This document shows positions 12,701 to 26,823 of a stretch of DNA of 27,693 nt, piece by piece. Below the pieces are notes generated by a model, which made no database searches, was not told where the DNA came from, and was given only the letters and a program-made list of their open reading frames with translations. Origin of the DNA: Thermoplasmatota archaeon (lineage in GTDB: Archaea > Thermoplasmatota > Poseidoniia > Poseidoniales > Poseidoniaceae). The position numbers and the translations under genes are program-made. The first letter of the stretch is position 1, and every line of letters starts with the position of its first letter. The DNA lies in the NCBI GenBank assembly GCA_036158745.1, contig JAYYFM010000001.1, positions 1 through 27,693 on the forward strand. The letters run 5' to 3'.

Positions 12701-14636
12701 TGACGAGGAACGAGTGAGTTTCATTCCGGGCGCCACCACTGAATCGGGATCTCAAGTGGTCACGTTCCGACATATGAGTGACCAGATTGGGGCAGTTCTG
12801 TACAAGGCCACTCTCACCGGTGATGGTGTTGAGAGCGAATTCAGCCAGCACACGTTTACCGTGGTTGTCAGTGATGTCGCCTCGGGCCAAGGCAGCTCGA
12901 CGCTCTCCCTTTCCGATACAGAATACCCAGTTGCGTTTGCAGGTATTGAATCCTCAACACTTTTGTTCACAACCATCGATGGTGAACTTCATGTTCGTTC
13001 CATCAGCAAAGACCTCCAGCTATTGACAGACACAATCGTTGATACAAACTGGGGTGGAGAAATCGATGTCATGGTTCGTAATGATGGTCTCGTCCACGCT
13101 GTTTGGACGAGCCGTACCCAATCGCAGCAAGGTTACTTCCTCAACGATATTGCTATGACTTCATTTTCAGCGACAGGCCAAATGTTACCTGTTCATCATC
13201 ACCTCACGCCTCTGAAAATTTCAGAAGGTCAATATTGGGGCCTCGATTTGGCCCAAGAAGACGAAACCGTCGTTCTATCAGGATACTTCAGGAATCTCTC
13301 AACAGGTGGTTCCTGGTCCGATCTGACATCGATCTTCAGCATCCATTCATCCACACCAGATGTTGGCGAGAATTGGACGAGCATGAAGACGCATGTGCCT
13401 ATTATCGATATCCATCCTGATGATGGTGATCAACTCGCAACATTGCTCGACGAAGGCGTCTTGCACATTCTATTCCAAGAACTCCGTGATGATGTGACTG
13501 GTGTCGAGCGAACCGGTCTGATGTACACGCGAGGTGACCTTGAATTGACACAGTGGGACTATCAAGCATCCATTGGTGATGAGGCTCATTCCGCACAACT
13601 TGGGATTGTTTCCACCGATGAAAACAAGTTCTTCTTTGCAGGATGGATTGAAGGCTCTGGTAAAGACACGAACATTGCTGTCCTTGCTACAGAAGGTGAT
13701 TGGAGCGAGGAACCAGTCGTAACTCCTGCGCCTGGGTCTACCACGCTCATTTTCAATCAACGTCAAGATGTTGTTGAAGTCGTATACAACGAGATCACTG
13801 TCCTTGGTGAGGTTTCACGTTACGGTATCCTAACTACAAAGGATACGCCCTCTGGCGACGCTCCAGTCGTTGGATTAGCAAACATTGTTTCTGAAAAGAA
13901 GAGTTTGCTTGGCTACAGCATGAACAATCAGGATGCTATCTTGTTTACCGTTTCGCCAACAGGTCGCTTCTCGATGCAGAAATTCTTGATGGATGAGGCA
14001 CAAGAACCAACCGAACCGAAGTCGCTGCTCGAACAATTGTTGGAACCTCTCCCGGGTTCGGACGAAATGAAGATGAGAATTTTATTCGGCATTGTCTCGG
14101 TTCTGTTTCTTCTGTTTGTTCTCGTCGTTATCTCCCTTCGTTCTGGTAGGAAGAAGGATGATGTTGTTGATGCAGCGATCGCTGAGGAAGATGAAGTTGC
14201 CATCCTTGTCCAAGTTGAAGAGGATGAACAAGAGGAAGAGTTGGTTGCTAGCGTTCCAATAACGCCTCCTGTACAGGTCGAGATGGAAGAACCCACGCTT
14301 GCAGAAGAACTTGAAGCCAAGAGCATTGCTGGCGAAGGGAATGCACGCTTGAATCGTCGCATGAAAAGGAAACAAGATCGTGAGATTGCAGAGATTGTTT
14401 CCAAAGGACTGCCTCCATTGCCGATTCCAACACCCTTACCGGAAGTGCCAGTTGCGGAAGCATTACCACCTCTGCCTGTAGCAGAACTCGAACCACTTGC
14501 GCTACCGCCGTTGGCAGATTTGCCTCCTCTTCGTCGTCAGGCGGTGTGCCCTTCATGCAGCGCTAATTTCCCAGTAACCGATTTGATGCGGGCTCAAGTC
14601 ACGTGTCCAATCTGCTCAGAAAGATTCAATCTCTGA
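9756..14636 (+). CDS. Giant secreted, membrane-anchored S8 (subtilisin-like) serine protease with Ig-like/CARDB domains
   Basis: Signal peptide (RQALFLVLLMLLLPMASQVQA); catalytic triad VLDTG, HGTHVAG, GTSMATP; CARDB-like segments (DVYNAGDKDA, RVDNLGQSNA); single C-terminal TM; acidic, basic and Pro-rich tail ending CPSC...CPIC. Alternative starts are 9678 and 9747. Confidence 0.9.
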   Translation: MRGWCHHSNPRQALFLVLLMLLLPMASQVQAIQTLPEVQEPTHAPPILVEGLPPLMCGEELCDRPLRMLERDGRMANMEYGWWQAYGPDLDWNGMDDRLQRVMSGLDSMSPTAIIGPDGRKTVAIVVDYAWNPTDVEEDKLRSTLEGHGWVGQDQGAFFETIRSIDAIAVDKVPVSALMDIYHLNGVVVIEMQNVMVPSNDVASRAATARPSGNYSFTAHEQGYYGTGVTIAVLDTGVDNEHRSLNDFDDVDDTPDADPNSYSDRKWIAGYDATAQTPDESGGTDPDDGNGHGTHVAGSALGTGDASRVHMGTAPGAGLIDIKVLTDGGGTNSQFSLRGLQWMINNVNTDWGVNSTYSGIQIASMSYGSLGGGPLLPNDPGDNGTSAESNLVNQATAVGIVCVVAIGNDGTNRVPSPGSADGAITVGSVDDRNTVLRTDDVMSDFSNYGPRLSDNDGDDTDEQKPDVTSYGSNIISATYAASFGLPGTPATLADNQYDSKSGTSMATPIASGVIALLLEAEPSLTPEEVKDVIQKSSEPRGEPADESISRWNETFGHGIIDASCAIAFAKGQICDNGLRASTSDVNVSFPVNGTWVMSDSVTRISGDVNTTEVAYDRVEIKIEQRFTFRDDNPRDGKNDKPPRTLLDWTVVNGSMDYWFYDFELQDSWVASDDEMILIYAVAKDADENESTLAIRHFQLSRTSLTLETPISRNVLSGTVEVTGDVEGVEHDRIEYKIDDGDWKTGTTLTKHDGPGQDGSDSWSFNWDSTEVDDGYREFFIRMVNKTGYISPIASRSYTIDNVEPAPSLRFQGEVEIFDQKLPAETAYAGSLLEVKFDVYNAGDKDATDIFVRLTAPGEDSEVYPSQGLIPSLEKGESVSVTLYWQASIAGLHDVMLELDPNNVQGDLEPDDNTLTFPFEILERPNQPVLRFLPGSVTTIPNIPLADEDYQINIRVDNLGQSNAVSLDMVLEYWVPDAGWQSIDEERVSFIPGATTESGSQVVTFRHMSDQIGAVLYKATLTGDGVESEFSQHTFTVVVSDVASGQGSSTLSLSDTEYPVAFAGIESSTLLFTTIDGELHVRSISKDLQLLTDTIVDTNWGGEIDVMVRNDGLVHAVWTSRTQSQQGYFLNDIAMTSFSATGQMLPVHHHLTPLKISEGQYWGLDLAQEDETVVLSGYFRNLSTGGSWSDLTSIFSIHSSTPDVGENWTSMKTHVPIIDIHPDDGDQLATLLDEGVLHILFQELRDDVTGVERTGLMYTRGDLELTQWDYQASIGDEAHSAQLGIVSTDENKFFFAGWIEGSGKDTNIAVLATEGDWSEEPVVTPAPGSTTLIFNQRQDVVEVVYNEITVLGEVSRYGILTTKDTPSGDAPVVGLANIVSEKKSLLGYSMNNQDAILFTVSPTGRFSMQKFLMDEAQEPTEPKSLLEQLLEPLPGSDEMKMRILFGIVSVLFLLFVLVVISLRSGRKKDDVVDAAIAEEDEVAILVQVEEDEQEEELVASVPITPPVQVEMEEPTLAEELEAKSIAGEGNARLNRRMKRKQDREIAEIVSKGLPPLPIPTPLPEVPVAEALPPLPVAELEPLALPPLADLPPLRRQAVCPSCSANFPVTDLMRAQVTCPICSERFNL

Positions 14637-17280: not shown

Positions 17281-17865
17281 ATGCGCATCCTCTTGGCTTC
17301 TGCATCCGAACGTCGAGGCACCATCCTTCGCCAACGCTTTGCAAACGTCGAACAAGTAGCACTCAAGGGCGTGAATGAATCTGTGCCTCGCCAAGTTCTC
17401 TCCAGTCAAGTGATGGAAGTTGCCTCTCGGAAGGCAAAGGCTGTCGTATTCAACGATGAGTTCGATGTCGTGGTCGTTTCAGATACGCTTGTCGAAGATC
17501 CCGATGACGATCAAGCCGCATTAGGCAAACCAACATCGAAAGAGCAAGCAGTTGCCATGCTTTTGCGCTTACGTGGTCGCCGACACCGTGTATGGTCCGC
17601 AACGATGGTTCATGCCATGGAGAACTGGCATTCGAGTGTCGAACACGCAGTTGTTGAAATCGAGGACTTCTCTGATGATGCATTGGTCGAACTCATCGAA
17701 TCAGACTCTTGGGTTGGTAAAGCTGGTGGCTATGACTTGGCTGGCATGATGGGGAAGTACGCTCAATTGATTGAAGGAACAGAACCGACAGTGCTAGGAT
17801 TTACTCAGTCTTCTCTCGACTTGCTGGATGACGTTCAATCGTTGCTTTCCATGAGTCGGTCGTAA
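17281..17865 (+). CDS. maf: Maf family nucleoside triphosphate pyrophosphatase
   Basis: ILLASASERR, VVSDT, LGKP, LRGRRHRVWS, GKAGGY. Confidence 0.88.
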   Translation: MRILLASASERRGTILRQRFANVEQVALKGVNESVPRQVLSSQVMEVASRKAKAVVFNDEFDVVVVSDTLVEDPDDDQAALGKPTSKEQAVAMLLRLRGRRHRVWSATMVHAMENWHSSVEHAVVEIEDFSDDALVELIESDSWVGKAGGYDLAGMMGKYAQLIEGTEPTVLGFTQSSLDLLDDVQSLLSMSRS

Positions 17866-19121
17866 AACATCGGCATTCGGTGCCAGTTGTCCGATGGGAA
17901 AACAGTGTGTCGAATGAACAGGACGCCGAGCAAGAAGGACGCAACACTTTGTGTTCCAACCCAAATGTAAACCGGTAAGTATTCTCCATCCAAAAGCACG
18001 GCTCCGTCATAGAGTGACCATGTCATGAGCACGCCACAAGCTAGGAACATCAAAACCAGATGCCAATGTGTTACCCGTGTCGATGGAGAATAGTGCAAGT
18101 GATCTTCGTGAAGGTAAATAGCGAACCCGCACACCACGAAGAAACATGAATAGACAATCAATAACCAATGTGAGGGCTGAATATTTGCTAAGCCTTCATG
18201 ACCTGTCCAAATCGGCGCAATTGAAACGAGTGAGAGCAGGGGTAACAGGGAGTACCCTACAAACACAAATCGAGAATGCGGTTTTGCAAATTTGCCTATG
18301 GAGAACCGTAAAACCTTCAGCGGATTCATCATGAAAAATACGTTCAAGAGAAGAATTGCAAATCCGATATCAATGACATCCTCTGATATCAAATTCCTTG
18401 CCCGTAAAAAACTCGCTACAACGTAGCCAATTCCTAGGAGAATGAGGATGAGAAATCGAACAGGCAGAGTTTTTGGATTTGTTGTATTCCAACCTAGCCT
18501 GCGATTAAAATGTGAGAGCATGACTGTCGACATCATCATCATGCAGAAAATCCCTACAATGAACGCAATACCAACTTGAATCATACCTTCGATTCCACGC
18601 ATAAACCATGAAGCAACGATGAACAACGAGCAGAATACGAGGACCAACCCAGGTGAGTACGAGAAGATTCCAACCTCTCCAGAGTTGTTTTTTTGTTTGA
18701 CAATATCGATCGATGATGGCGTAAGCGTAAGTAAAGCAAGGCACATCAAAACAATGCCAATTCCTGAGAATTCAATGAATACTTCCCAATTGCCGATGTA
18801 GATGCCAAGATGAATGAACAATTGTCCAAGAGCGTTGAGTTGCAAAAAGTGACGCATTGTTGTCCGTTCAAAAGATGGGACATTGTACACAAGCGGCAAC
18901 GTATCAAACGCAATACCTGCGAGGATGGCCATGACAGGCCCCAATGCGAAAAGCGTGATGAGAACAAAATTCATGACTTCAAGACGATCCGTGTTCTGGA
19001 ATAATTCGTAAGGAGAAAAAAATGTCAACCACGCCAAGAGGAATGTCAAGGCGATGAAGAACAGCATCGATGATGTAAACAGTTCAAGATATGAACCTGC
19101 GAATTGCTGACGCCGGTCCAT
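17835..19121 (-). CDS. Uncharacterised ~12-TM membrane protein
   Basis: 428-aa hydrophobic ORF with about 12 TMs and a perfect RBS; weak three-fold pseudo-repeat; family not identified. Confidence 0.7.
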   Translation of the reverse strand: MDRRQQFAGSYLELFTSSMLFFIALTFLLAWLTFFSPYELFQNTDRLEVMNFVLITLFALGPVMAILAGIAFDTLPLVYNVPSFERTTMRHFLQLNALGQLFIHLGIYIGNWEVFIEFSGIGIVLMCLALLTLTPSSIDIVKQKNNSGEVGIFSYSPGLVLVFCSLFIVASWFMRGIEGMIQVGIAFIVGIFCMMMMSTVMLSHFNRRLGWNTTNPKTLPVRFLILILLGIGYVVASFLRARNLISEDVIDIGFAILLLNVFFMMNPLKVLRFSIGKFAKPHSRFVFVGYSLLPLLSLVSIAPIWTGHEGLANIQPSHWLLIVYSCFFVVCGFAIYLHEDHLHYSPSTRVTHWHLVLMFLACGVLMTWSLYDGAVLLDGEYLPVYIWVGTQSVASFLLGVLFIRHTVFPSDNWHRMPMFYDRLMESND

Positions 19122-19125
19122 TGTT

Positions 19126-19132
19126 TCACCTC
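19126..19132 (-). promoter_or_regulatory. Ribosome-binding site GAGGTGA overlapping the sepF stop codon
   Basis: Minus strand reads TGAGGTGA-AACA-ATG (start 19121). Confidence 0.75.
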
Positions 19133-19685
19133 AATTTACGCGTAGCAATCGCGTAAGTCCCAGCTCGTGCTTTTCAATATCAACAACGACATCAGCTCCT
19201 GGAATCATCAACAACTTGTCTTCCGAATCCAGAGCAAAGACGCCAACACCTACTTGCTCACACATAACTCGTAACTCTCGTCGACAGGCCTGTTGATGCG
19301 ATTCCATGTGGACCAATGTTCGTAGATCAACAATCACAGTATCCCCTTGAAGCACTCGTTGAGCGATGTCTCGCGTGTGGATACGATGCTTTTCATCTGG
19401 CTTGACATACCGAAGCGCTCGTGTTGGTCGAGTCATAACCCGTCCTCCATGGTGTGAGAGATCATGGAATGGTTCTCCGTCTGGTGTCACTGGTCCATTC
19501 CATTCGAAAGAGATGTTTTCGTCGATTTGAGATGCAGGCGTCTCCTCGACAATTTGGGTTTCTACTTCAACAGGTTCATTGGTCAATTGTCTGTTTTGCG
19601 TGGAAGCAGGTGCTCCTGCAACTCGAGCCGCACCGCCCGCATCTGGGTCCGGGAGTCCAAAGAACTGCCATAGATTTCCCATCAT
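19131..19685 (-). CDS. sepF: Cell division protein SepF (archaeal type)
   Basis: N-terminal amphipathic segment MGNLWQFFG, low-complexity linker, core DIAQRVLQGDTVIVDL...ELRVMCEQVGVGVFALDSEDKLLMIPGADVVV. Start is ATG 19685 or 19682. Confidence 0.75.
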   Translation of the reverse strand: MMGNLWQFFGLPDPDAGGAARVAGAPASTQNRQLTNEPVEVETQIVEETPASQIDENISFEWNGPVTPDGEPFHDLSHHGGRVMTRPTRALRYVKPDEKHRIHTRDIAQRVLQGDTVIVDLRTLVHMESHQQACRRELRVMCEQVGVGVFALDSEDKLLMIPGADVVVDIEKHELGLTRLLRVN

Positions 19686-19687
19686 TA

Positions 19688-22600
19688 TCACAAGTCCAAA
19701 TCATCCAGTAGGTCGGAGAGATTCGTATCCTGATTCGATGGTGAAGTCATTGAAGGTGTCGGTTGATAGGTAGGTGCAGGTGCTTGATTTGCTGCCAGAT
19801 ATTGCTCACCATAGTACGCCCATTGTTCCATGGTCCAACCAGCCGGTAGGCCAGTGGCTGGGAGTGGAGGGCCTTGATTCACGACTGGCTGTTCAACAAA
19901 CGGCTCTGGTTGAACAGGCGCTTGTGGCGCTGGCTGCTCGTATGAAGGCAATTCCGAAGGCGCATAACTTGGTAACGGCGTTGTATCCCATGCTTTGTTC
20001 GATGGAGTCTCGACCAAATCTGGCGGTGAACGGCGAGTGATGAGCAGGAACGATGCCAACATGATCACCAAACCAACGAGTCCTAGAATGACAATCGACA
20101 TGGTTTTAGAGACACCCAATGTATCGCTGAACTCTTCGATGAATCCTTCAGGGGGCGGTTCTGCAACATCGATGGTAAGCGTAAATGTGTCCGTCGAAAG
20201 ATCGTCATCGGTTACAGTGAGGTTGATCTTCCACGTGCCAACCGGTAAATCGGTTATCGATACAACAGGCCCAGTTTCACCAAGGTCATTCTCGCCCCTC
20301 CACTCAAATGTCCAAACGTAGAGCATGTTCAGCAGATCTGAATCTGAGTCCGTTGTCCCATCGGATGAGAGGTTGAGCGTATCGCCCTTCACGAGGTTGT
20401 CAAGTGATCCGTTGGCGAACGAAATCTCTGCGCCCGGCAGGACGTTCTGAACTTTGACAACAGCCGAAATCGATGCCATGGCACCATCGTCGTCCTTCAC
20501 CCATGCCGTAACGGTTCGGAACTGAGGGTTGCTGGTCTCCCATGTGTACTCAAAATGAGTCCCACTTACATCACAGTCATTGTTCAAGGTGCCATCGAGG
20601 TCCGCATCACGTGTTCCGTCGATATCCCAACAGACTTCCAGTGAATCCTTGTCTGAAGCCGTATCATCAACAGCGACGTCAAAGACCACTTCGTCGTCTT
20701 CATCAACCGTAAGGCCTTTGTTGACAGCGTTGAGGAAATTCGCCTCTGCAGTCATGGTTGGCGGTACGTTGACAATTGTGACCTTTGCGAGCGAAGTGGA
20801 AGAGGTTGCTCCGTCGTCGTCAACAGCACGAACTGAGATGATGTGTTCTCCAGACGTTGGCCATGAGGTTGAAACGTCGGAGGCTGAACCATCGGTGGAT
20901 ACAGTGAAATTGTCGAGAACATCACTCAGGTTCCAGTCGATGATAAGTCCATCACGATCGTTGAGTGTGTCATCGCCTTGAGCACGAAGAATGACTGTTT
21001 GGTCCTCTTGGAGTACCCATGTTCCATTCGCATCGAATGGTGTATTTACGCCTGCAATCCACACGCCAATTTCGCCAATGGTTGGGGCAACATTCAGAAC
21101 TTCAATCGAGGAAAGCACTTCGGTTTCCTCGCCATCATCGTCGGTTGCAATTGCTCGGATTGGCATCGTTCCCTCTTCAAGTGGCGTAAAAGTACACGTC
21201 GGTTGTGTTAATCCTTCAAAACAGTTCAAATCTGGCCAAGAAACACTGACTTGCTGGCCTGACGGCGATATTGTGTCGATATCTCCGCTATCACTGGCAT
21301 CGATGGTTATTGAGGATTCGACCGCAATTTCCGTTGGGTGGCTGAGGTTGATGTACGGTGCTCGGTTGAGGATTGTGACGTTGCTTACCAATACCGTTGT
21401 GTCGAGTTCATTATCGGTTACGACAGTTCGCAATTCCCAGTCACCGTCGTCGGACCAGTTCCAACTGATGGCACAAGTTGGCGTCGTAATGACATCAACA
21501 AGACCTGGACGTGATTCAATTTCAAATCGACACTCGACGTCTCCACCATCAGGGTCAAAGGAAGAACGGGCGTCAATGAAGACGTCTTCGAATGTGTAAT
21601 TCCCAGTGTCGATGGTAATGGATGCGTTTGGTGCACGGCCGATAAAGACGTCAATAGTAGCTTGGTTGTTGCTTCGATTAGCGTCCCCCGCAATGAGCTC
21701 ATCTGGATCAACGGTGAAGGTCAATGTCTTGTTTCCAATGGTGGAATCTTCAGGAACAATCCAGTCGATTACAATGCGTTGTTCACTGTACGCCTCGATG
21801 GATGGAACAGCCTGTCGGCTTGAATCACCATCGGGTACAACAATTTCCATTTCTGTTGAAGGAGATGGCAAAACACCTCTGTTTTGGGCTGGTAGAGAGA
21901 AGGAGAGTTCGTCACCGGGCAAGGCGTTGTAGCCAATGGATTTTGAGAGGGTCGCAACCTCACCATTGCGAGTTCGCGTAACGATGATTGAGTCTTCTTG
22001 GGCAACCAAATCGATACCTACAACAGACAAGTCGATGACAACCGTAGCGACGCCAATAATTTCCTGAACTGGATCCCAGACAATCACGCCGTTGCTGCTA
22101 AAGTCATCGCTAGCGATGGTGTCATCCACGACATTTGAAACGTTGATTGTCTCTTCGATCTGCCCACTACTGTTGGTAGTTGGATTGACAAGTGTCCCTG
22201 CCATTTCGTAACGCAACTGGAGGTTTTTATTGACCTCTGGTATACCGTTTGGAGCAACTGAGTAGGTTGCGTAAATCTTTGATTCCGAGTCAGGTAGTGT
22301 AGCAATAAATTGAGTTTCAACCTCGATGTCGACATTTCGATCACCTGGATTTTTTCTCTTGTCAACGCCAAACGAATCAACAGGTTCGTAATCTTTCAAG
22401 AGCCAGTCAATGGTGAAACCAGCAGCGTTTGAGATTCGAATCCAAGAGTTGAATCGAACAGCAGGACAGTACCAATTAAATCCAGCACTGACGCCTGTGG
22501 CGTTCCATTCGTTGATTTTGTACGAATCATCGCATCCTTCGTACTTGATGTTCTGACCATCTTCTGTCGGAATTCCGTCTTTGGTGACCTGCCAGGAGGT

Positions 22601-23272
22601 ATTTTCAGCTCCTTGGGTGTCAAACTCGGTAGGGTCAAAGTAATCAGATGAACCACTTACGCTCGTACCGGACATAAACGGCATGTACCATTGATCACCC
22701 GTCCTCATTGGGAAATCGTATTTTTCCTTGGGTGGGTCGTAATAGGTATCGAAGGATATTGTGGCCAAATTTTGCGACAAAAAGCCAAGATTGAATGGTG
22801 CAAAGTTAACGTCCAATTCAAATTCCGAATTGATGATTGCAAGATCTCGAACGCGTACGATATCTTCGCCAGAATAATCTATGTCAAGCCGTCCACTAAC
22901 ACTTTCGAGGGTGGCGCCGCTGTTCCCTGATGAGAATTCCCCCTCTATGAGCATCTTGTACGCAAGCGTTTGGACTCCGTCAACATTGATGAAGAAGATG
23001 TCATCAATCTCGTAAACAGTATCTCCGGTCAGTGTATTGAGGCTTGCAGATACGTTGGCTTGGGCAAGTAGTTGAGAAACATCAAATTGCGTCTCATAGG
23101 TCCATTTGTCACCGATGCGCCAACTGGGAACATCCGTGGAGCTTGATGTATCGGATGAATGGTCAACAGATGGCAGCAGGTCGAGTGTCGTGTTGTCGTT
23201 GCTGACAAGATGTACAGTGGTTGAACCTGCCAAAAGGAACAAAACAAGCAAAGTCAGAATGCGGTTCGCCAT
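19688..23272 (-). CDS. Cell-surface PKD/CARDB-domain protein, paralog 2 (1194 aa), C-terminal TM anchor
   Basis: Signal peptide; N-terminal PSWRIGDKWTY domain; CARDB (AQNRG...FTVDPDELI...DANRSNN); several PKD-like repeats (IDARSSFDPDG, TVTDDD); TM; tail GPPLPATGLPAGWTMEQWAYYGEQYL. Confidence 0.8.
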   Translation of the reverse strand: MANRILTLLVLFLLAGSTTVHLVSNDNTTLDLLPSVDHSSDTSSSTDVPSWRIGDKWTYETQFDVSQLLAQANVSASLNTLTGDTVYEIDDIFFINVDGVQTLAYKMLIEGEFSSGNSGATLESVSGRLDIDYSGEDIVRVRDLAIINSEFELDVNFAPFNLGFLSQNLATISFDTYYDPPKEKYDFPMRTGDQWYMPFMSGTSVSGSSDYFDPTEFDTQGAENTSWQVTKDGIPTEDGQNIKYEGCDDSYKINEWNATGVSAGFNWYCPAVRFNSWIRISNAAGFTIDWLLKDYEPVDSFGVDKRKNPGDRNVDIEVETQFIATLPDSESKIYATYSVAPNGIPEVNKNLQLRYEMAGTLVNPTTNSSGQIEETINVSNVVDDTIASDDFSSNGVIVWDPVQEIIGVATVVIDLSVVGIDLVAQEDSIIVTRTRNGEVATLSKSIGYNALPGDELSFSLPAQNRGVLPSPSTEMEIVVPDGDSSRQAVPSIEAYSEQRIVIDWIVPEDSTIGNKTLTFTVDPDELIAGDANRSNNQATIDVFIGRAPNASITIDTGNYTFEDVFIDARSSFDPDGGDVECRFEIESRPGLVDVITTPTCAISWNWSDDGDWELRTVVTDNELDTTVLVSNVTILNRAPYINLSHPTEIAVESSITIDASDSGDIDTISPSGQQVSVSWPDLNCFEGLTQPTCTFTPLEEGTMPIRAIATDDDGEETEVLSSIEVLNVAPTIGEIGVWIAGVNTPFDANGTWVLQEDQTVILRAQGDDTLNDRDGLIIDWNLSDVLDNFTVSTDGSASDVSTSWPTSGEHIISVRAVDDDGATSSTSLAKVTIVNVPPTMTAEANFLNAVNKGLTVDEDDEVVFDVAVDDTASDKDSLEVCWDIDGTRDADLDGTLNNDCDVSGTHFEYTWETSNPQFRTVTAWVKDDDGAMASISAVVKVQNVLPGAEISFANGSLDNLVKGDTLNLSSDGTTDSDSDLLNMLYVWTFEWRGENDLGETGPVVSITDLPVGTWKINLTVTDDDLSTDTFTLTIDVAEPPPEGFIEEFSDTLGVSKTMSIVILGLVGLVIMLASFLLITRRSPPDLVETPSNKAWDTTPLPSYAPSELPSYEQPAPQAPVQPEPFVEQPVVNQGPPLPATGLPAGWTMEQWAYYGEQYLAANQAPAPTYQPTPSMTSPSNQDTNLSDLLDDLDL

Positions 23273-23296
23273 GCTTGAATGTCTGCTTCCTTGTAC

Positions 23297-26200
23297 TTAG
23301 GAATTGTCAGCCTGCGAGTCGAGCCATTGTTGACCATAGTGCTCCCATTGCTCCATCGTCCACCCATCGGGCAATCCGCCTTCTGGAAGGGGAGGTCCAG
23401 TTGTCGATGTAGGGGCTACGTTGACCGAATCAAATGCCCGTTCAACGGGCGGATCTTGTGGACGATTTCGACGTGCTGAGATTTCATGCGGCATCAGACC
23501 GACTTCCTCATCGCTAAAAATTGCGTTTTGTTGCTGGTCAAGCCGATCCATGGCTCGTTGTTGTCTTCCAGAGCGTCGACGGCGGGTCATCATGCCGAGG
23601 ACAAGAAGCATGAAGGCAAGCAATGAAAGTTGAGCAACAGGATTGGCTTCATCGCCGATGAAGGCAGCGCCCAATTCCTCCACGATGGTACGTTCCGGTG
23701 CACCAATCTCAACATTGATGACTCGAGTTCCGGGTCGTTCTGGATTTTCGTCCCAGGCAATGACTCGGATTGTGTACGATCCCTCACGGGTGAAAATATG
23801 CTCGATTTGTTTACCGATTTTGTCTGCATCGTTGTCTTTGACACCATCACCATTGCTGTCAACGGATGTGTCGAGATCCCAAACGATCGTGATTTGGTCA
23901 AGATCATTGATGGAGTCGATTGTTCCTGTTGCATCCAATAGACACGCTTCAAGGGCGTTGCAGACAATGTCCTTCGTTCGAACAATTGGTGGGATGTTGA
24001 GGACTTCAATGGTGAGAATCTCACTGACACGCACCCCGTCATCGTCGGTTACGTGATAGATGACCGTGTGTGTTCCGCTTGTGTTCCAGTGCCAGACCAG
24101 CTCATCTCCAAACACATCGCAGTCATCATCAGCACCGCCGATATCATTGGAATCGAGACCGGGATCAACATCCCAACAACGAACCAACGTATCGTAATCG
24201 GAGGGCGTATCGGTTGCATTGCCGACCAATCGAACTTCTTCTCCTTCGGCGAGGGGGAGAACTTGCTCCAGTGGTTGAACAACTGGTGGGACGTTTGCAA
24301 CACTCACCCATCGCTCGTATGTGCCGCTGCTGGCTCCTTCAGAGTCACTAACCTCGAGACGCATGCGGTGGAGGCCAGATGTCTCCCACATCATCTCAAA
24401 TTCCGAAACACGCCCATCGAAGGTTTTGATGAGATTTGGTTGTGCATCATCTGGCCACCATCGATGGGTTAAGCCATCCAAATCATCGATTGAATCGAGT
24501 GCTTGGCCACGAAGATTGACCATTTGGTCCTCTTGAACATGCCATGTTTGCTGGACATCGAGTGGTAGTGGACCACTCTCGTTGGTCATGGTGACGGATA
24601 GCCCGTGAGGGTTGATGTTGGTGAATCTGATATCGATGCTGACCATAGTCATGGCACTATCATCGTCAACACCAACGGCTTGGAATGTATGCCATCCTTC
24701 AGTCGGTGCAGTCGTTGTACACACTCGCGTGTAGTATCCTTCTTCGCAAATCGCATTTGGCCAATACACATCTACGATTCCAGGAAACGGGTCTTCAGAA
24801 TCCGTATCGTTTGCGTAAGCATAGAGCGTAACAGGATGTTCGACTTTGACCTCGGTACGGGCGCTAATGACCTCGATGTTTGGGGCGCGATTCAGAATAA
24901 CGACATCAAGAATGCCTTCGACTTCGTCTTGTTCTTCGTCTGTAATGGTGACCTCGATGGGATATTCTCCATCGTTTGTCCATGTCCAATTCAGCATGCA
25001 ATCCATGGATTCAACTCGCGTCCACGCTGCTGAGCGAGTACCATCGTACCAAGGAACATTGAACAGACAGGATACGTTGCCACCGTCTTCATCAAAACTA
25101 CCTGAGGCATTGATGACCGTCTCGACGTTTGTGTAGACTTCGATGGGCTCGAGAACTGCTGTCGGTAGACGTCCAATGAACAACTCAATTTCACCAAGGT
25201 CGTTATCGGCATCCGCATCAGCAGTGTTGACTTGCAAAGGATCTGATTCCCATCGAATTGGCAAGGTTCCAATCGCTGCATCAGCGGGAACCGTCCAGGT
25301 GAAATTGACCTTGTGTGACTCATACGTAGAAAGTGGTGGTAACCCAAGGTCAAAGATTGAACCATCGGGATGATAGATTCGTAAATCAGTGGCTGTCGAT
25401 GTTGTGATTCCTTTGTTGACAACAGCGACTTCGATGGTCAAGTCATCACCGGGAAGGACATTGTAACCCGATAGGGAACTGACAGTGCTGACAACTCCAC
25501 TCCTGTTTCGAATGATGACAGCTCGCTCTTCATCAGCGATCAAGTCAAGACCAACGAGGTACTCATCAAGCGTAATGGTTGCTGCGCCAACGTAACTTCC
25601 AGATTTCGCCATAATGCCATGACTGGACCAGTCGGTATTCGTTGCTGAATAATCAATGCTGCTACCTGAATCAATCGTTGTGCTTGCTGAACCGTTTGAA
25701 GCAGTGTAGACAGTGGTAGAAGCACCATCGTAGGCGACCTCAACCCCAACTCCATCAATGGTTCCATAACACGATGGACTGAGGTGAACCCAGACTTCAA
25801 GTGGTGAATCAAGTGCTGTTAGAGAACGCTCAGGTTCGACTTCAACACATGTCGGCCGCGTGCCTGGGTCGCTGTTGCTTTCAACGCCCGTCGCTCCGAT
25901 TGGCATGTACTGCTTCAAACGGAAATCGATGGTCAGTCCAACATCCTCTTCAGCATGCCGCCATGCGTAATTGTTGACCGCTGGGCAGTACCATCGGTAA
26001 CCCGTTGAGACGCCATTGGAGTTCCATGATGTCAGTTCGTACGATGCATCGCATCCACTGTAAGCAATCCCAGCCCCAATGCCGTTTCGAGGTTGTCCAA
26101 CATCGGTGACTTCCCATGTTGTGGTGTTGGTATCTGTTTCTGGTGGCGGGAACGGTGTGATGTAATCGCTCTGACCGGACCATTGTGAGGATGCGGTTGT

Positions 26201-26797
26201 GAGTGAAGTCCACCGTTCACCATAGCGGAGCGGGAAATCGTACGCCTCCGTGGCAGGGCTGTATTCGTTCGTAATCGTGATATCACCGAGGATTTGTGTG
26301 AGCGAACCGATGCCGTATGGAATGAACTTGATGTACAAATCGAGGTCGTTCTTGACGGTCGCAAAGTCGCTCACTCGAAGGTATTCGGTCTGTGTGAATT
26401 GGATTTCCGCATTCCCAGTGAACCCTTCAAGTTCGACACCACTTTTGTCGAAATCTGCGGACATCCGCAGCTTGTAGACCCATTCGGTTCCATTGTCGAA
26501 TTGAAGTTCGAGAATGTCCGTGACTTCTGCTGTTGCATCGCCTCGAATCTCACCCACGTTTGCTGAAACGCCCGTGTCTGTGATGAGAATGGATGGGTCA
26601 AACGTCCCTGAGTAAATCCACTTATCACCGACTCTCCATGAGGGCAGGTCGGTTACTCCAGGATCGGAACCACTTCGCTTAACGACTTCCTCGTTAGAGA
26701 ACAGAAGGTTATGTTCAACCAATGGGATTTGACTGAACCCAATCATGCAGGTAAGAACGAGCAGGGCCAAGACACGTGACTTGAGCACTCCGCCCAT
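23297..26797 (-). CDS. Cell-surface PKD/CARDB-domain protein, paralog 1 (~1166 aa), C-terminal TM anchor
   Basis: Collinear with 19688..23272: PSWRVGDKWIY, WYCPAV, CARDB, PKD repeats, TM, tail GPPLPEGGLPDGWTMEQWEHYGQQWL. The likely start is ATG 26797 (MGGVLK); the track start is 26821. Confidence 0.8.
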   Translation of the reverse strand: MGGVLKSRVLALLVLTCMIGFSQIPLVEHNLLFSNEEVVKRSGSDPGVTDLPSWRVGDKWIYSGTFDPSILITDTGVSANVGEIRGDATAEVTDILELQFDNGTEWVYKLRMSADFDKSGVELEGFTGNAEIQFTQTEYLRVSDFATVKNDLDLYIKFIPYGIGSLTQILGDITITNEYSPATEAYDFPLRYGERWTSLTTASSQWSGQSDYITPFPPPETDTNTTTWEVTDVGQPRNGIGAGIAYSGCDASYELTSWNSNGVSTGYRWYCPAVNNYAWRHAEEDVGLTIDFRLKQYMPIGATGVESNSDPGTRPTCVEVEPERSLTALDSPLEVWVHLSPSCYGTIDGVGVEVAYDGASTTVYTASNGSASTTIDSGSSIDYSATNTDWSSHGIMAKSGSYVGAATITLDEYLVGLDLIADEERAVIIRNRSGVVSTVSSLSGYNVLPGDDLTIEVAVVNKGITTSTATDLRIYHPDGSIFDLGLPPLSTYESHKVNFTWTVPADAAIGTLPIRWESDPLQVNTADADADNDLGEIELFIGRLPTAVLEPIEVYTNVETVINASGSFDEDGGNVSCLFNVPWYDGTRSAAWTRVESMDCMLNWTWTNDGEYPIEVTITDEEQDEVEGILDVVILNRAPNIEVISARTEVKVEHPVTLYAYANDTDSEDPFPGIVDVYWPNAICEEGYYTRVCTTTAPTEGWHTFQAVGVDDDSAMTMVSIDIRFTNINPHGLSVTMTNESGPLPLDVQQTWHVQEDQMVNLRGQALDSIDDLDGLTHRWWPDDAQPNLIKTFDGRVSEFEMMWETSGLHRMRLEVSDSEGASSGTYERWVSVANVPPVVQPLEQVLPLAEGEEVRLVGNATDTPSDYDTLVRCWDVDPGLDSNDIGGADDDCDVFGDELVWHWNTSGTHTVIYHVTDDDGVRVSEILTIEVLNIPPIVRTKDIVCNALEACLLDATGTIDSINDLDQITIVWDLDTSVDSNGDGVKDNDADKIGKQIEHIFTREGSYTIRVIAWDENPERPGTRVINVEIGAPERTIVEELGAAFIGDEANPVAQLSLLAFMLLVLGMMTRRRRSGRQQRAMDRLDQQQNAIFSDEEVGLMPHEISARRNRPQDPPVERAFDSVNVAPTSTTGPPLPEGGLPDGWTMEQWEHYGQQWLDSQADNS

Positions 26798-26823
26798 GCA
26801 TGTGCTTGCATGTTCTTGCACAT
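26797..26823. repeat. Three phased decamers with TGCA cores at 10-bp spacing
   Basis: TGCATGTGCT-TGCATGTTCT-TGCACAT; TGCA at 26797, 26807 and 26817, between tbp and the paralog 1 start. Confidence 0.4.

What the first reader, a model, noticed from the sequence alone, without database searches (positions are those of the whole stretch)
19796..23398. Conserved 26-aa cytoplasmic motif GPPLPxxGLPxGWTMEQWxxYGxQ[WY]L on both surface proteins
Seen: copies at 19796-19873 and 23321-23398 are identical at 19 of 26 residues, while the rest of the two tails is unalignable low-complexity sequence. Both copies follow the TM and a basic stop-transfer cluster. The LPxGW start recalls the opening of WW domains and PPLP is a classical WW ligand, but the remainder does not fit WW, so that resemblance may be superficial. 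I believe similar tails recur on MGII membrane proteins but know of no assigned function. Inference: a lineage-specific sorting, localisation or scaffold-binding tag defining an undescribed surface-protein targeting system with an unknown reader.
Basis: partly seen in the sequence, partly recalled or inferred. Interest (0 to 1): 0.72.

Follow-up and report, generated by a model that had tools for sequence, protein, structure and literature searches.

The report
Shared inner tail tag, MGII archaea
Two giant surface proteins of a Marine Group II (Poseidoniales) archaeon end, inside the cell, in the same nearly invariant 27-residue proline/tryptophan module; every genome of that order searched puts it on 1-12 otherwise unrelated membrane-anchored proteins, no database or paper searched describes it, and its partner is still unknown.

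Summary
Both copies lie on the minus strand at the stated coordinates, match at 19 of 26 residues, and follow a transmembrane helix and an Arg cluster.

It is not a paralog remnant:
- This 62%-complete genome has 9 copies on unrelated ectodomains (PKD/CARDB, S8 protease, WD40 propeller).
- All 157 Poseidoniales genomes sampled have 1-12 copies. None of 45 sister-order genomes does, and only one marginal hit appears among 236 other Thermoplasmatota.
- In 138 of 138 instances with enough upstream sequence, the motif sits 12-128 residues after a TM helix and usually ends the protein.
- Eight positions are invariant in 143 instances, and synonymous codons differ, so selection acts on the protein.

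Pfam, NCBIfam, PDB and the literature search give no family. It is not a WW domain. AlphaFold2 predicts a confident proline arm followed by an aromatic helix.

The most likely function is a tethered docking handle for one unknown cytoplasmic partner. SepF is not supported as that partner. A separate acidic end-peptide (LLDDLDL), not this motif, tracks the adjacent sepF gene.

This scan found the same tag on other genomes at least five times, with the same conclusion.

The parts
23297..26821 (-). P0003, a 1174-aa type-I surface protein: signal peptide, PKD/CARDB ectodomain, one TM helix, cytoplasmic tail
23588..23644 (-). TM anchor of P0003 (about residues 1060-1078), followed by TRRRRSGRQQR at 23549-23587
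   Evidence: Hydropathy and sequence.
23399..23587 (-). Variable cytoplasmic linker of P0003 (63 residues). It does not align with the P0002 linker.
23318..23398 (-). Tail module copy 1 (27 aa): GPPLPEGGLPDGWTMEQWEHYGQQWLD, 6 residues before the stop
   Evidence: (62 bits).
19688..23272 (-). P0002, a 1194-aa paralogous type-I surface protein (32% identical to P0003)
20036..20104 (-). TM anchor of P0002 (residues 1057-1079), followed by RRSPP
19874..20035 (-). Variable Pro/Ala/Glu-rich linker of P0002 (54 residues)
19793..19873 (-). Tail module copy 2 (27 aa): GPPLPATGLPAGWTMEQWAYYGEQYLA
   Evidence: (61 bits).
19691..19792 (-). Second tether (27 aa) plus acidic end-peptide LLDDLDL-COOH (19691-19711). 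This is a separate conserved element found only in the orthogroup that lies upstream of sepF.
19131..19691 (-). sepF homologue (P0004, 186 aa). Its start overlaps the P0002 stop by 4 nt.
   Evidence: N-terminal amphipathic MxxLWQFFGLP; top 16 PDB matches are all SepF; 3zie TM 0.79. Pfam SepF gives only 12.8 bits.

Best explanation
The motif is a small autonomous cytoplasmic module of about 27 residues: a proline arm (GPP[LIV]PxxGLPxG) that probably packs on an aromatic amphipathic helix (W[TS]M[ED]QWx[HY]YGx[QE][YW]L). It hangs on a disordered Pro/Ala/Glu-rich tether of 12-128 residues below the single TM anchor of many unrelated type-I surface proteins of Poseidoniales. It most likely acts as a common docking handle. 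One conserved intracellular partner (a cortical, cytoskeletal or membrane-associated protein) would bind the same module on every carrier and so retain, position or organise the cell's large surface proteins. Shown here: the module, its distribution, its fixed topological position, its protein-level conservation and its modularity. Inferred: that it folds on itself, that it binds a partner, and what follows from that binding.
For: 1. Modularity. The same module sits on an S8 subtilase, a WD40 propeller, PKD/CARDB proteins, Ig-like proteins and domain-less proteins. The roughly 1200-aa carriers of other families share only the motif with P0002/P0003. A small N-anchored protein carries two tandem copies (P0017).
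2. Distribution. It is found in f1 89/89, f3 66/66 and f2 2/2 genomes. It is not found in 45 sister-order genomes, and among 236 other genomes of the phylum there is only one marginal hit. Record titles name Poseidoniales, Poseidoniaceae and Thalassarchaeaceae. 644 cluster representatives match among 1.84 billion proteins.
3. Fixed position. 138 of 138 instances lie after a TM helix. 129 of 145 end within 5 residues of the profile's last column. All five full-length carriers in this genome have signal peptides.
4. Strong purifying selection. Eight residues are invariant in 143 instances, with sharp edges against low-information flanks. Synonymous codons differ.
5. Predicted fold. AlphaFold2 on 24 sequences gives pLDDT 86 with a helix at 18-32 and a confident non-regular N-arm. 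The top covarying pairs are i/i+4 within the helix (26-30, 23-27, 28-32), and position 7 (L vs V/I) associates weakly with position 28 (Y vs W), Fisher p=0.005.
6. The tolerated tether lengths and the tolerated C-terminal extensions (0-76 residues) fit a folded handle rather than a terminal-carboxylate signal.
Against: No partner was found. Neighbour clustering around 139 carriers returned only housekeeping genes tied to single orthogroups. No MIT or WW family match was found; SH3, GYF and other proline-binding families were not searched. The fold rests on a single prediction for a 33-residue peptide whose coordinates I could not inspect, and fold searches returned nothing. The covariation is confounded by relatedness. 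26 of 138 carriers have an acidic rather than a basic stretch after the TM helix, so the cytoplasmic location is inferred from signal peptides and ectodomain types, not shown. The organisms are uncultured and there are no experimental data.
Confidence: 0.5

Rival explanations
1. Tail-to-tail association. The modules bind each other, or bind other Trp-rich tail modules of neighbouring surface proteins, and so cross-link the surface coat from inside without a dedicated reader.
For: There are 8-12 carriers per Poseidoniaceae genome, and one protein has tandem copies. Other tails in this genome end in related PxGW-helix or WW-like hairpin pieces. PPLP is a classical ligand for such hairpins (general knowledge).
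Against: Some genera have only 1-2 carriers (g6, g22). Pfam recognises no WW or other domain in the other tails. No oligomer prediction was run.
Confidence: 0.15
2. Biogenesis or quality-control signal. The module is read once, for example to fix the N-out/C-in topology after translocation of a very long ectodomain, or as a recognition tag for a membrane protease such as LonB.
For: It is the last part of the protein to leave the ribosome. All carriers are very large secreted proteins with one late TM helix. LonB lies next to carriers in 22 loci, which probably reflects synteny of a single orthogroup.
Against: Many similar TM-anchored giants in the same genome lack the module. Tolerated C-terminal extensions of up to 76 residues argue against a degron at the extreme C-terminus.
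Confidence: 0.12
3. Interfacial membrane binder. The aromatic helix lies back on the inner leaflet as a second anchor or as a lipid or curvature sensor.
For: The helix is rich in Trp and Tyr and is amphipathic. The tether would allow it to reach back to the membrane.
Against: The invariant proline arm, G25, Q20 and [ED]19 are not needed for lipid binding. Conservation covers most of the helix circumference. Tethers of up to 128 residues are unnecessary for this role.
Confidence: 0.1
4. SepF, or the divisome, is the reader of the 27-residue motif.
For: sepF starts inside the P0002 stop codon, and the gene order is kept in other genera.
Against: Only one carrier orthogroup adjoins sepF. In G021 (family f2) and in G083 and G079 (genus g7) the sepF-upstream TM protein keeps an acidic end but has no 27-residue motif. 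The element that tracks sepF is therefore the end-peptide.
Confidence: 0.04
5. Duplication remnant or chance resemblance restricted to this paralog pair.
For: P0002 and P0003 are tandem paralogs.
Against: There are nine copies on unrelated proteins in this genome and the motif is present across the whole order.
Confidence: 0.01

Closest known systems
Tethered C-terminal docking peptides on disordered linkers, such as the FtsZ C-terminal peptide that docks on SepF, FtsA or ZipA (M. smithii peptide NEDQLDDFIDGIF, PMC8178401)
   Same: Both are a short, strongly conserved terminal module on a variable Pro/Gln/Ala-rich tether. The tether length is free and the module is near invariant.
   Different: The partner here is unknown. 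The module is longer (27 aa), is predicted to fold on itself, sits on membrane-anchored surface proteins, and is shared by many unrelated proteins.
C-terminal sorting signals of prokaryotic surface proteins (PGF-CTERM/archaeosortase A, GlyGly-CTERM/rhombosortase, LPXTG/sortase)
   Same: Both are lineage-specific tags shared by many unrelated surface proteins, in several copies per genome.
   Different: Those signals run motif, TM, basic cluster at the very end and are cleaved at the outer face. Here the order is TM, charged stretch, tether, motif, so the motif is cytoplasmic. No exosortase-family gene was found over the cut-off in 41 genomes.
PP-fold miniproteins (pancreatic polypeptide/NPY) and the Trp-cage
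   Same: Each is about 30 residues with a polyproline stretch, a turn and an aromatic amphipathic helix. The prediction here shows a confident non-regular arm plus a helix.
   Different: There is no sequence family match. Packing of the arm on the helix could not be inspected, and the fold searches were uninformative at this size. The resemblance comes from my own knowledge and is not a test.
WW domain (PF00397)
   Same: Both open with LPxGW, and a PPLP stretch lies nearby.
   Different: There is no HMM match. The predicted structure is a helix instead of three strands. The Trp spacing is 5 rather than 20-22, and there is no closing Pro.
Cytoplasmic tails of eukaryotic adhesion receptors (integrin NPxY-talin, cadherin-catenin)
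   Same: Both are type-I surface proteins whose short conserved tail element couples them to an intracellular scaffold. This is the same working logic as the best explanation.
   Different: There is no sequence or evolutionary relation, and the archaeal partner is hypothetical.

Membership tests
WW domain (PF00397) | Match to the family HMM | tested here: not met
   No hit at E<=1 on either protein or tail. No hit at E<=10 anywhere in the genome.
WW domain (PF00397) | Three-stranded antiparallel sheet, with two Trp 20-22 residues apart and a closing Pro | tested here: not met
   AlphaFold2 predicts a helix at 18-32 and no strands. W16 and W21 are 5 residues apart.
C-terminal sorting signals (PGF-CTERM, GlyGly-CTERM, LPXTG types) | Tripartite order of motif, TM helix and basic cluster at the extreme C-terminus | tested here: not met
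   The order here is TM, charged stretch, 12-128-residue tether, motif, in 138 of 138 instances.
C-terminal sorting signals (PGF-CTERM, GlyGly-CTERM, LPXTG types) | Co-occurring dedicated processing enzyme (archaeosortase/exosortase) | tested here: inconclusive
   PF09721 was not found over the cut-off in 41 genomes of the order. The control did not ring in Haloferax volcanii, which is known to have ArtA, so sensitivity is limited.
C-terminal sorting signals (PGF-CTERM, GlyGly-CTERM, LPXTG types) | Shared by many unrelated surface proteins of one lineage | tested here: met
PP-fold / Trp-cage-like miniprotein | Polyproline arm packed on an amphipathic aromatic helix within about 30-36 residues | tested here: inconclusive
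   pLDDT is 86, with a helix at 18-32 and a confident N-arm. There is i/i+4 covariation and a weak 7-28 association. Coordinates were not inspectable and no structural match was found.
PP-fold / Trp-cage-like miniprotein | Sequence family match (Pfam Hormone_3) | tested here: not met
   No Pfam family on the tails.
Tethered docking peptide (FtsZ-CTP type) | Conserved terminal module on a variable, low-complexity tether | tested here: met
   The linker is 16% Pro, 13% Ala and 9% Glu and is 12-128 residues long. Information content rises sharply only in columns 4-30.
Tethered docking peptide (FtsZ-CTP type) | A defined binding partner | not testable with these tools
   The one complex job (SepF core dimer with the P0002 tail) gave no verdict. 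A proteome-wide screen was not possible.
SepF (for the neighbouring gene P0004) | SepF core fold and an N-terminal membrane-targeting helix | tested here: met
   The top 16 Foldseek PDB matches are all SepF (3zie TM 0.79, probability 1.00). The conserved N-terminus is MxxLWQFFGLP. Pfam SepF gives only 12.8 bits, below the cut-off.

The most novel reading that the evidence does not exclude
Poseidoniales have an order-specific system for organising their envelope from inside. A dedicated cytoplasmic receptor or cortical scaffold reads the 27-residue module on all major anchored surface proteins. One carrier also bears an FtsZ-CTD-like acidic end-peptide that docks on SepF, which would make it a MapZ-like transmembrane landmark linking the surface coat to the division ring.
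Probability: 0.25. Interest if true: 0.8.

Novelty: new variant of a known kind. Interest (0 to 1): 0.6.

Why it matters
Poseidoniales are among the most abundant archaea in the surface ocean, are uncultured, and their envelope biology is unknown. A single invariant handle on up to a dozen large surface proteins per cell, including proteases, probable adhesins and propeller proteins, implies one intracellular hub that touches most of the anchored surface proteome. Finding that hub would show how a probably wall-less archaeon holds and arranges its surface proteins. The module is also a clean sequence marker for Poseidoniales membrane proteins: it exposed two mis-binned 'bacterial' contigs. At 27 residues and possibly self-folding, it is also a tractable biophysical object.

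Tried and rejected
- **Complex prediction.** SepF core (2 copies) with the P0002 tail (residues 1134-1194) returned no verdict, with a score of 0.00 and no controls run. This is not evidence either way.
- **Fold searches of the 33-residue model.** Foldseek against the PDB and VIA-align wide returned nothing. The model is too small for these tools.
- **ESM Atlas look-up of the tail.** Only a 'hypothetical protein, Archaea' cluster at 0.75.
- **Viral contigs.** One partial match (IPDGWTPEQW) lies inside an 812-aa phage protein. It is not C-terminal and lacks the rest of the motif, so it is chance.
- **Neighbour clustering around carriers.** Only housekeeping genes (thermosome, LonB, adenylate kinase) tied to single orthogroups. 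Single-linkage clustering merged all carriers through the motif.
- **MIM2/Vps4 idea** (the proline arm as an MIT ligand). No MIT domain in 61 genomes of the class, and the control was positive in Sulfolobus.
- **WW readers.** No PF00397 match in this genome. Pfam finds no domain in ten other Trp-rich tails.
- **SepF by sequence.** phmmer and a profile against the PDB found nothing. The fold search settled it.
- **FtsZ mimicry by the organism's own FtsZ.** Poseidoniales FtsZ paralogs end in ...IEFVN and ...QRFD, unlike LLDDLDL.
- **RNA evidence.** Two metatranscriptome libraries hold contigs of 90-95% relatives across both genes and sepF, but the tool warns that DNA carry-over is possible, so transcription is not shown.
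- **Genome-wide subtraction against a sister-order genome** to list order-specific proteins. Not attempted, because the fetch limits would have allowed only one partial genome.
Full report
**1. The observation**

The two motif copies are on the minus strand. Translating the stated coordinates on the plus strand gives a stop codon in one copy. On the minus strand, ORF 23297-26821 (P0003, 1174 aa) and ORF 19688-23272 (P0002, 1194 aa) are tandem paralogs. They are 32% identical over their full length.

- P0003 carries GPPLPEGGLPDGWTMEQWEHYGQQWL at 23321-23398.
- P0002 carries GPPLPATGLPAGWTMEQWAYYGEQYL at 19796-19873.
- The two copies match at 19 of 26 residues.
- The 54-63 residues between the TM helix and the motif do not align.
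- Each protein has an N-terminal signal peptide, PKD and CARDB domains, one late TM helix and an Arg cluster.

**2. It is not a remnant of this pair**

A regular-expression scan and then a profile of the motif find nine copies in this genome, which is 1.45 Mb in 392 contigs and 62% complete. Each copy lies near the C-terminus of a long ORF, after a hydrophobic helix. The profile scores are bimodal: nine hits at 52-65 bits, and the next six-frame hit at 9 bits.

The carriers are unrelated outside the tail:
- an S8 subtilase of 1634 aa;
- a WD40/beta-propeller protein;
- proteins with Ig-like modules;
- two large proteins with no Pfam domain;
- the PKD/CARDB pair in this window.

Among the nine copies, 53% of pairwise-identical residues use different codons. 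The conservation is therefore selection on the protein, not recent DNA copying or a nucleotide-level element.

**3. Distribution**

| Group searched | Genomes with the motif | Copies per genome |
|---|---|---|
| 30 closest relatives (10 genera, 3 families) | 30 of 30 | |
| Family f1 | 89 of 89 | mostly 7-12 |
| Family f3 | 66 of 66 | mostly 3-4 (range 1-8) |
| Other families of the same class | 0 of 45 | |
| Rest of the phylum | one marginal hit (E = 0.007) in 236 | |

- A pattern scan of one genome per prokaryotic species returned more than 269 confirmed places. The 80 shown are titled Poseidoniales, Poseidoniaceae, Thalassarchaeaceae or older names for Marine Group II.
- Two contigs were filed under bacterial MAGs. 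The 'Verrucomicrobiales' contig is syntenic with this window (P0002 58%, SepF 51%, KaiC 88%, GlmS 70% identical). The 3.3-kb 'Yoonia' contig carries a relative of another surface protein of this genome. Both look mis-binned.
- Among 1.84 billion cluster representatives, 644 match at E <= 0.001, mostly short metagenomic fragments.

**4. Anatomy over 145 non-redundant instances**

- All 138 instances with enough upstream sequence have a hydrophobic helix 12-128 residues (median 56) before the motif.
- The seven exceptions are cut by contig ends, masked bases or a frameshift.
- The tether is 16% Pro, 13% Ala and 9% Glu.
- In 129 of 145 instances the protein ends within 5 residues of the profile's last column.
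- 112 of 138 have two or more Lys/Arg just after the TM helix. The other 26 have an acidic run there instead, so the cytoplasmic location rests mainly on signal peptides and ectodomain types.

Information content rises sharply only between columns 4 and 30. The consensus is G-P-P-[LIV]-P-x-x-G-L-P-x-G-W-[TS]-M-[ED]-Q-W-x-[HYW]-Y-G-x-[QE]-[YW]-L-[DE]. P8, G11, P13, G15, W16, Q20, W21 and G25 are invariant in 143 sequences.

One metagenomic protein (P0017) is small, N-terminally anchored, and has two tandem copies. The module is therefore not restricted to giant ectoproteins.

**5. Structure**

AlphaFold2 on a 24-sequence alignment gives mean pLDDT 86. It predicts a helix at 18-32 and a confident but non-regular N-terminal arm.

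- The strongest covarying column pairs are 26-30, 23-27 and 28-32, the i/i+4 pattern of a helix.
- Trp at position 28 goes more often with Val/Ile at position 7, and Tyr with Leu (Fisher p = 0.005). This hints at arm-helix contact, but relatedness confounds it.
- A helical wheel drawn by hand places M18, W21, G25, Y28 and L29 on one face.

From my own knowledge, this layout resembles the PP-fold of pancreatic polypeptide or a Trp-cage. I could not inspect coordinates, and fold searches return nothing for so small a model. The resemblance is a lead, not a result.

**6. What it is not**

- No Pfam or NCBIfam family covers the tails.
- A full-text search for strings of the motif finds no paper.
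- It is not a WW domain.
- It is not a PGF-CTERM, GlyGly-CTERM or LPXTG type signal, because the order of elements is reversed and the motif is on the cytoplasmic side. No exosortase-family gene passes the cut-off in 41 genomes, though that control has limited sensitivity.
- The proline arm is not an ESCRT MIM2 ligand, because the class has no MIT domain.

**7. The suggested readers**

The gene after P0002 is a true SepF homologue.
- Its N-terminus is a conserved amphipathic MxxLWQFFGLP.
- Its predicted core matches archaeal and bacterial SepF structures in the top 16 PDB hits.
- Sequence methods alone stay below threshold.

The P0002 orthogroup carries a second element beyond the 27-residue module: a further 27-76-residue tether ending in an acidic-hydrophobic peptide such as LLDDLDL, LLDDLDF, DDDLDF or PWEFDL.

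- All 11 loci with this extension have sepF immediately downstream, including one from Thalassarchaeaceae. Two further Thalassarchaeaceae genera show the same arrangement.
- In family f2 (G021) and genus g7 (G083, G079), the TM protein upstream of sepF keeps an acidic end (IADLDLDDLF, or ends in EEE) but has no 27-residue motif.

The end-peptide, not the motif under study, is therefore the element linked to sepF.

The peptide of M. smithii FtsZ that binds SepF is NEDQLDDFIDGIF, with LDDFI in the conserved groove (PMC8178401). That makes the end-peptide a plausible SepF ligand. However, the Poseidoniales FtsZ paralogs end differently, and the one complex prediction gave no verdict.

The rhomboid in the window lies next to an S8 protease whose tail ends in a zinc ribbon, a different tail class.

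**8. Mechanism**

The data show a discrete, probably self-folding module that is kept invariant while everything around it varies. It is attached by a free-length tether to the inner end of many unrelated surface proteins in one order.

The simplest reading is a common docking handle for one conserved intracellular partner (confidence about 0.5). The rivals are tail-to-tail association, a biogenesis or turnover signal, and interfacial membrane binding. None is excluded. Neighbourhood analysis gave no candidate partner.

**9. Earlier notes of this scan**

After my own analysis I found that the scan had met the same tag on other genomes at least five times. Follow-up agents reached the same conclusions. 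One of them also noted the acidic end-peptide and its position beside sepF. I had reached these points independently, so they are replications on other DNA, not independent kinds of evidence.

- the sister-order and phylum-wide negative counts;
- the codon-level test;
- the structure prediction with helix covariation;
- the separation of the end-peptide from the 27-residue motif in f2 and g7;
- the negative MIT, WW and exosortase searches.

**10. Verdict**

The feature is real, strongly conserved, specific to the order, and undescribed in the public sources searched. Its function is inferred only. Interest is 0.6: notable for archaeal cell biology and directly testable with a peptide, but without a partner or phenotype, and already noted repeatedly by this scan.

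Noticed in passing
window 19691-19711 (minus) and sepF at 19131-19691; loci L039, L074, L081, L097, L099, L109, L117, L128, L130, L132, L171, L172: The carrier just upstream of sepF ends in a conserved acidic-hydrophobic peptide (LLDDLDL, LLDDLDF, PWEFDL and similar) on a second tether. It resembles the FtsZ C-terminal peptide that SepF binds in M. smithii (LDDFI, PMC8178401). In f2 and genus g7 the sepF-upstream TM protein keeps an acidic end without the 27-residue motif. It may be a MapZ-like membrane partner of SepF.
   Followed up: partly
window 14100-14636 (plus); G000 contigs C13 and C188: A second tail class. The giant S8 protease in the window has a TM helix, an acidic stretch, a Pro-rich LPPLP tether and a C-terminal CPSC...CPIC zinc ribbon. 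Other TM-anchored giants in the genome end similarly.
   Followed up: partly
L161, L162, L163 (G000 C53, C109, C98 tails): Degenerate relatives of the module on other tails, for example FPGWDEAMLQQYLDLGWTLDQLEEYY, and PPIPDGWTEEAFVAWL followed by PEDWSDEQWENI. These look like tandem 'PxGW-helix' units, and the profile does not score them.
   Followed up: partly
L164-L168 (G000 C4, C139, C132, C197, C125 tails): Several other surface-protein tails end in Trp-rich hairpin-like pieces, for example GTEWYEDEVGTWWYREAGAEDW. They look WW-like by eye but have no Pfam match. They would be conceivable ligands or readers of the proline arm.
   Followed up: partly
P0017 (metagenomic protein): A 297-aa protein with only an N-terminal TM anchor, a charged helical region and two tandem copies of the module. 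It is a possible adaptor-type carrier without an ectodomain.
   Followed up: no
L099 (NZEQ01000049.1, 'Verrucomicrobiales' MAG) and L070 (CAXRJJ010000014.1, 'Yoonia' MAG): Contigs filed under bacterial MAGs carry the module. L099 is syntenic with this window, so both are probably mis-binned Poseidoniales DNA.
   Followed up: yes
26 of 138 carriers, e.g. L066, L045, L068: The stretch just after the TM helix is acidic (for example LNSEEEEE) instead of basic, which is unusual for the cytoplasmic side of a stop-transfer anchor.
   Followed up: no
window 17835-19121 (minus): A 428-aa polytopic membrane protein with no Pfam family lies between sepF and maf here. It is absent from the syntenic locus of another genus (L128).
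   Followed up: partly
alignment A3, P0004 residues about 89-116: Poseidoniales SepF has a highly conserved basic segment (P-x-RALRYV-x-PD-xx-R) before the canonical core, predicted as an extra strand and helix. It could be the site for an acidic ligand.
   Followed up: no
L153, L155-L158: The two FtsZ paralogs of Poseidoniales end in ...IEFVN and ...QRFD, unlike the M. smithii FtsZ C-terminal peptide NEDQLDDFIDGIF (PMC8178401).
   Followed up: partly
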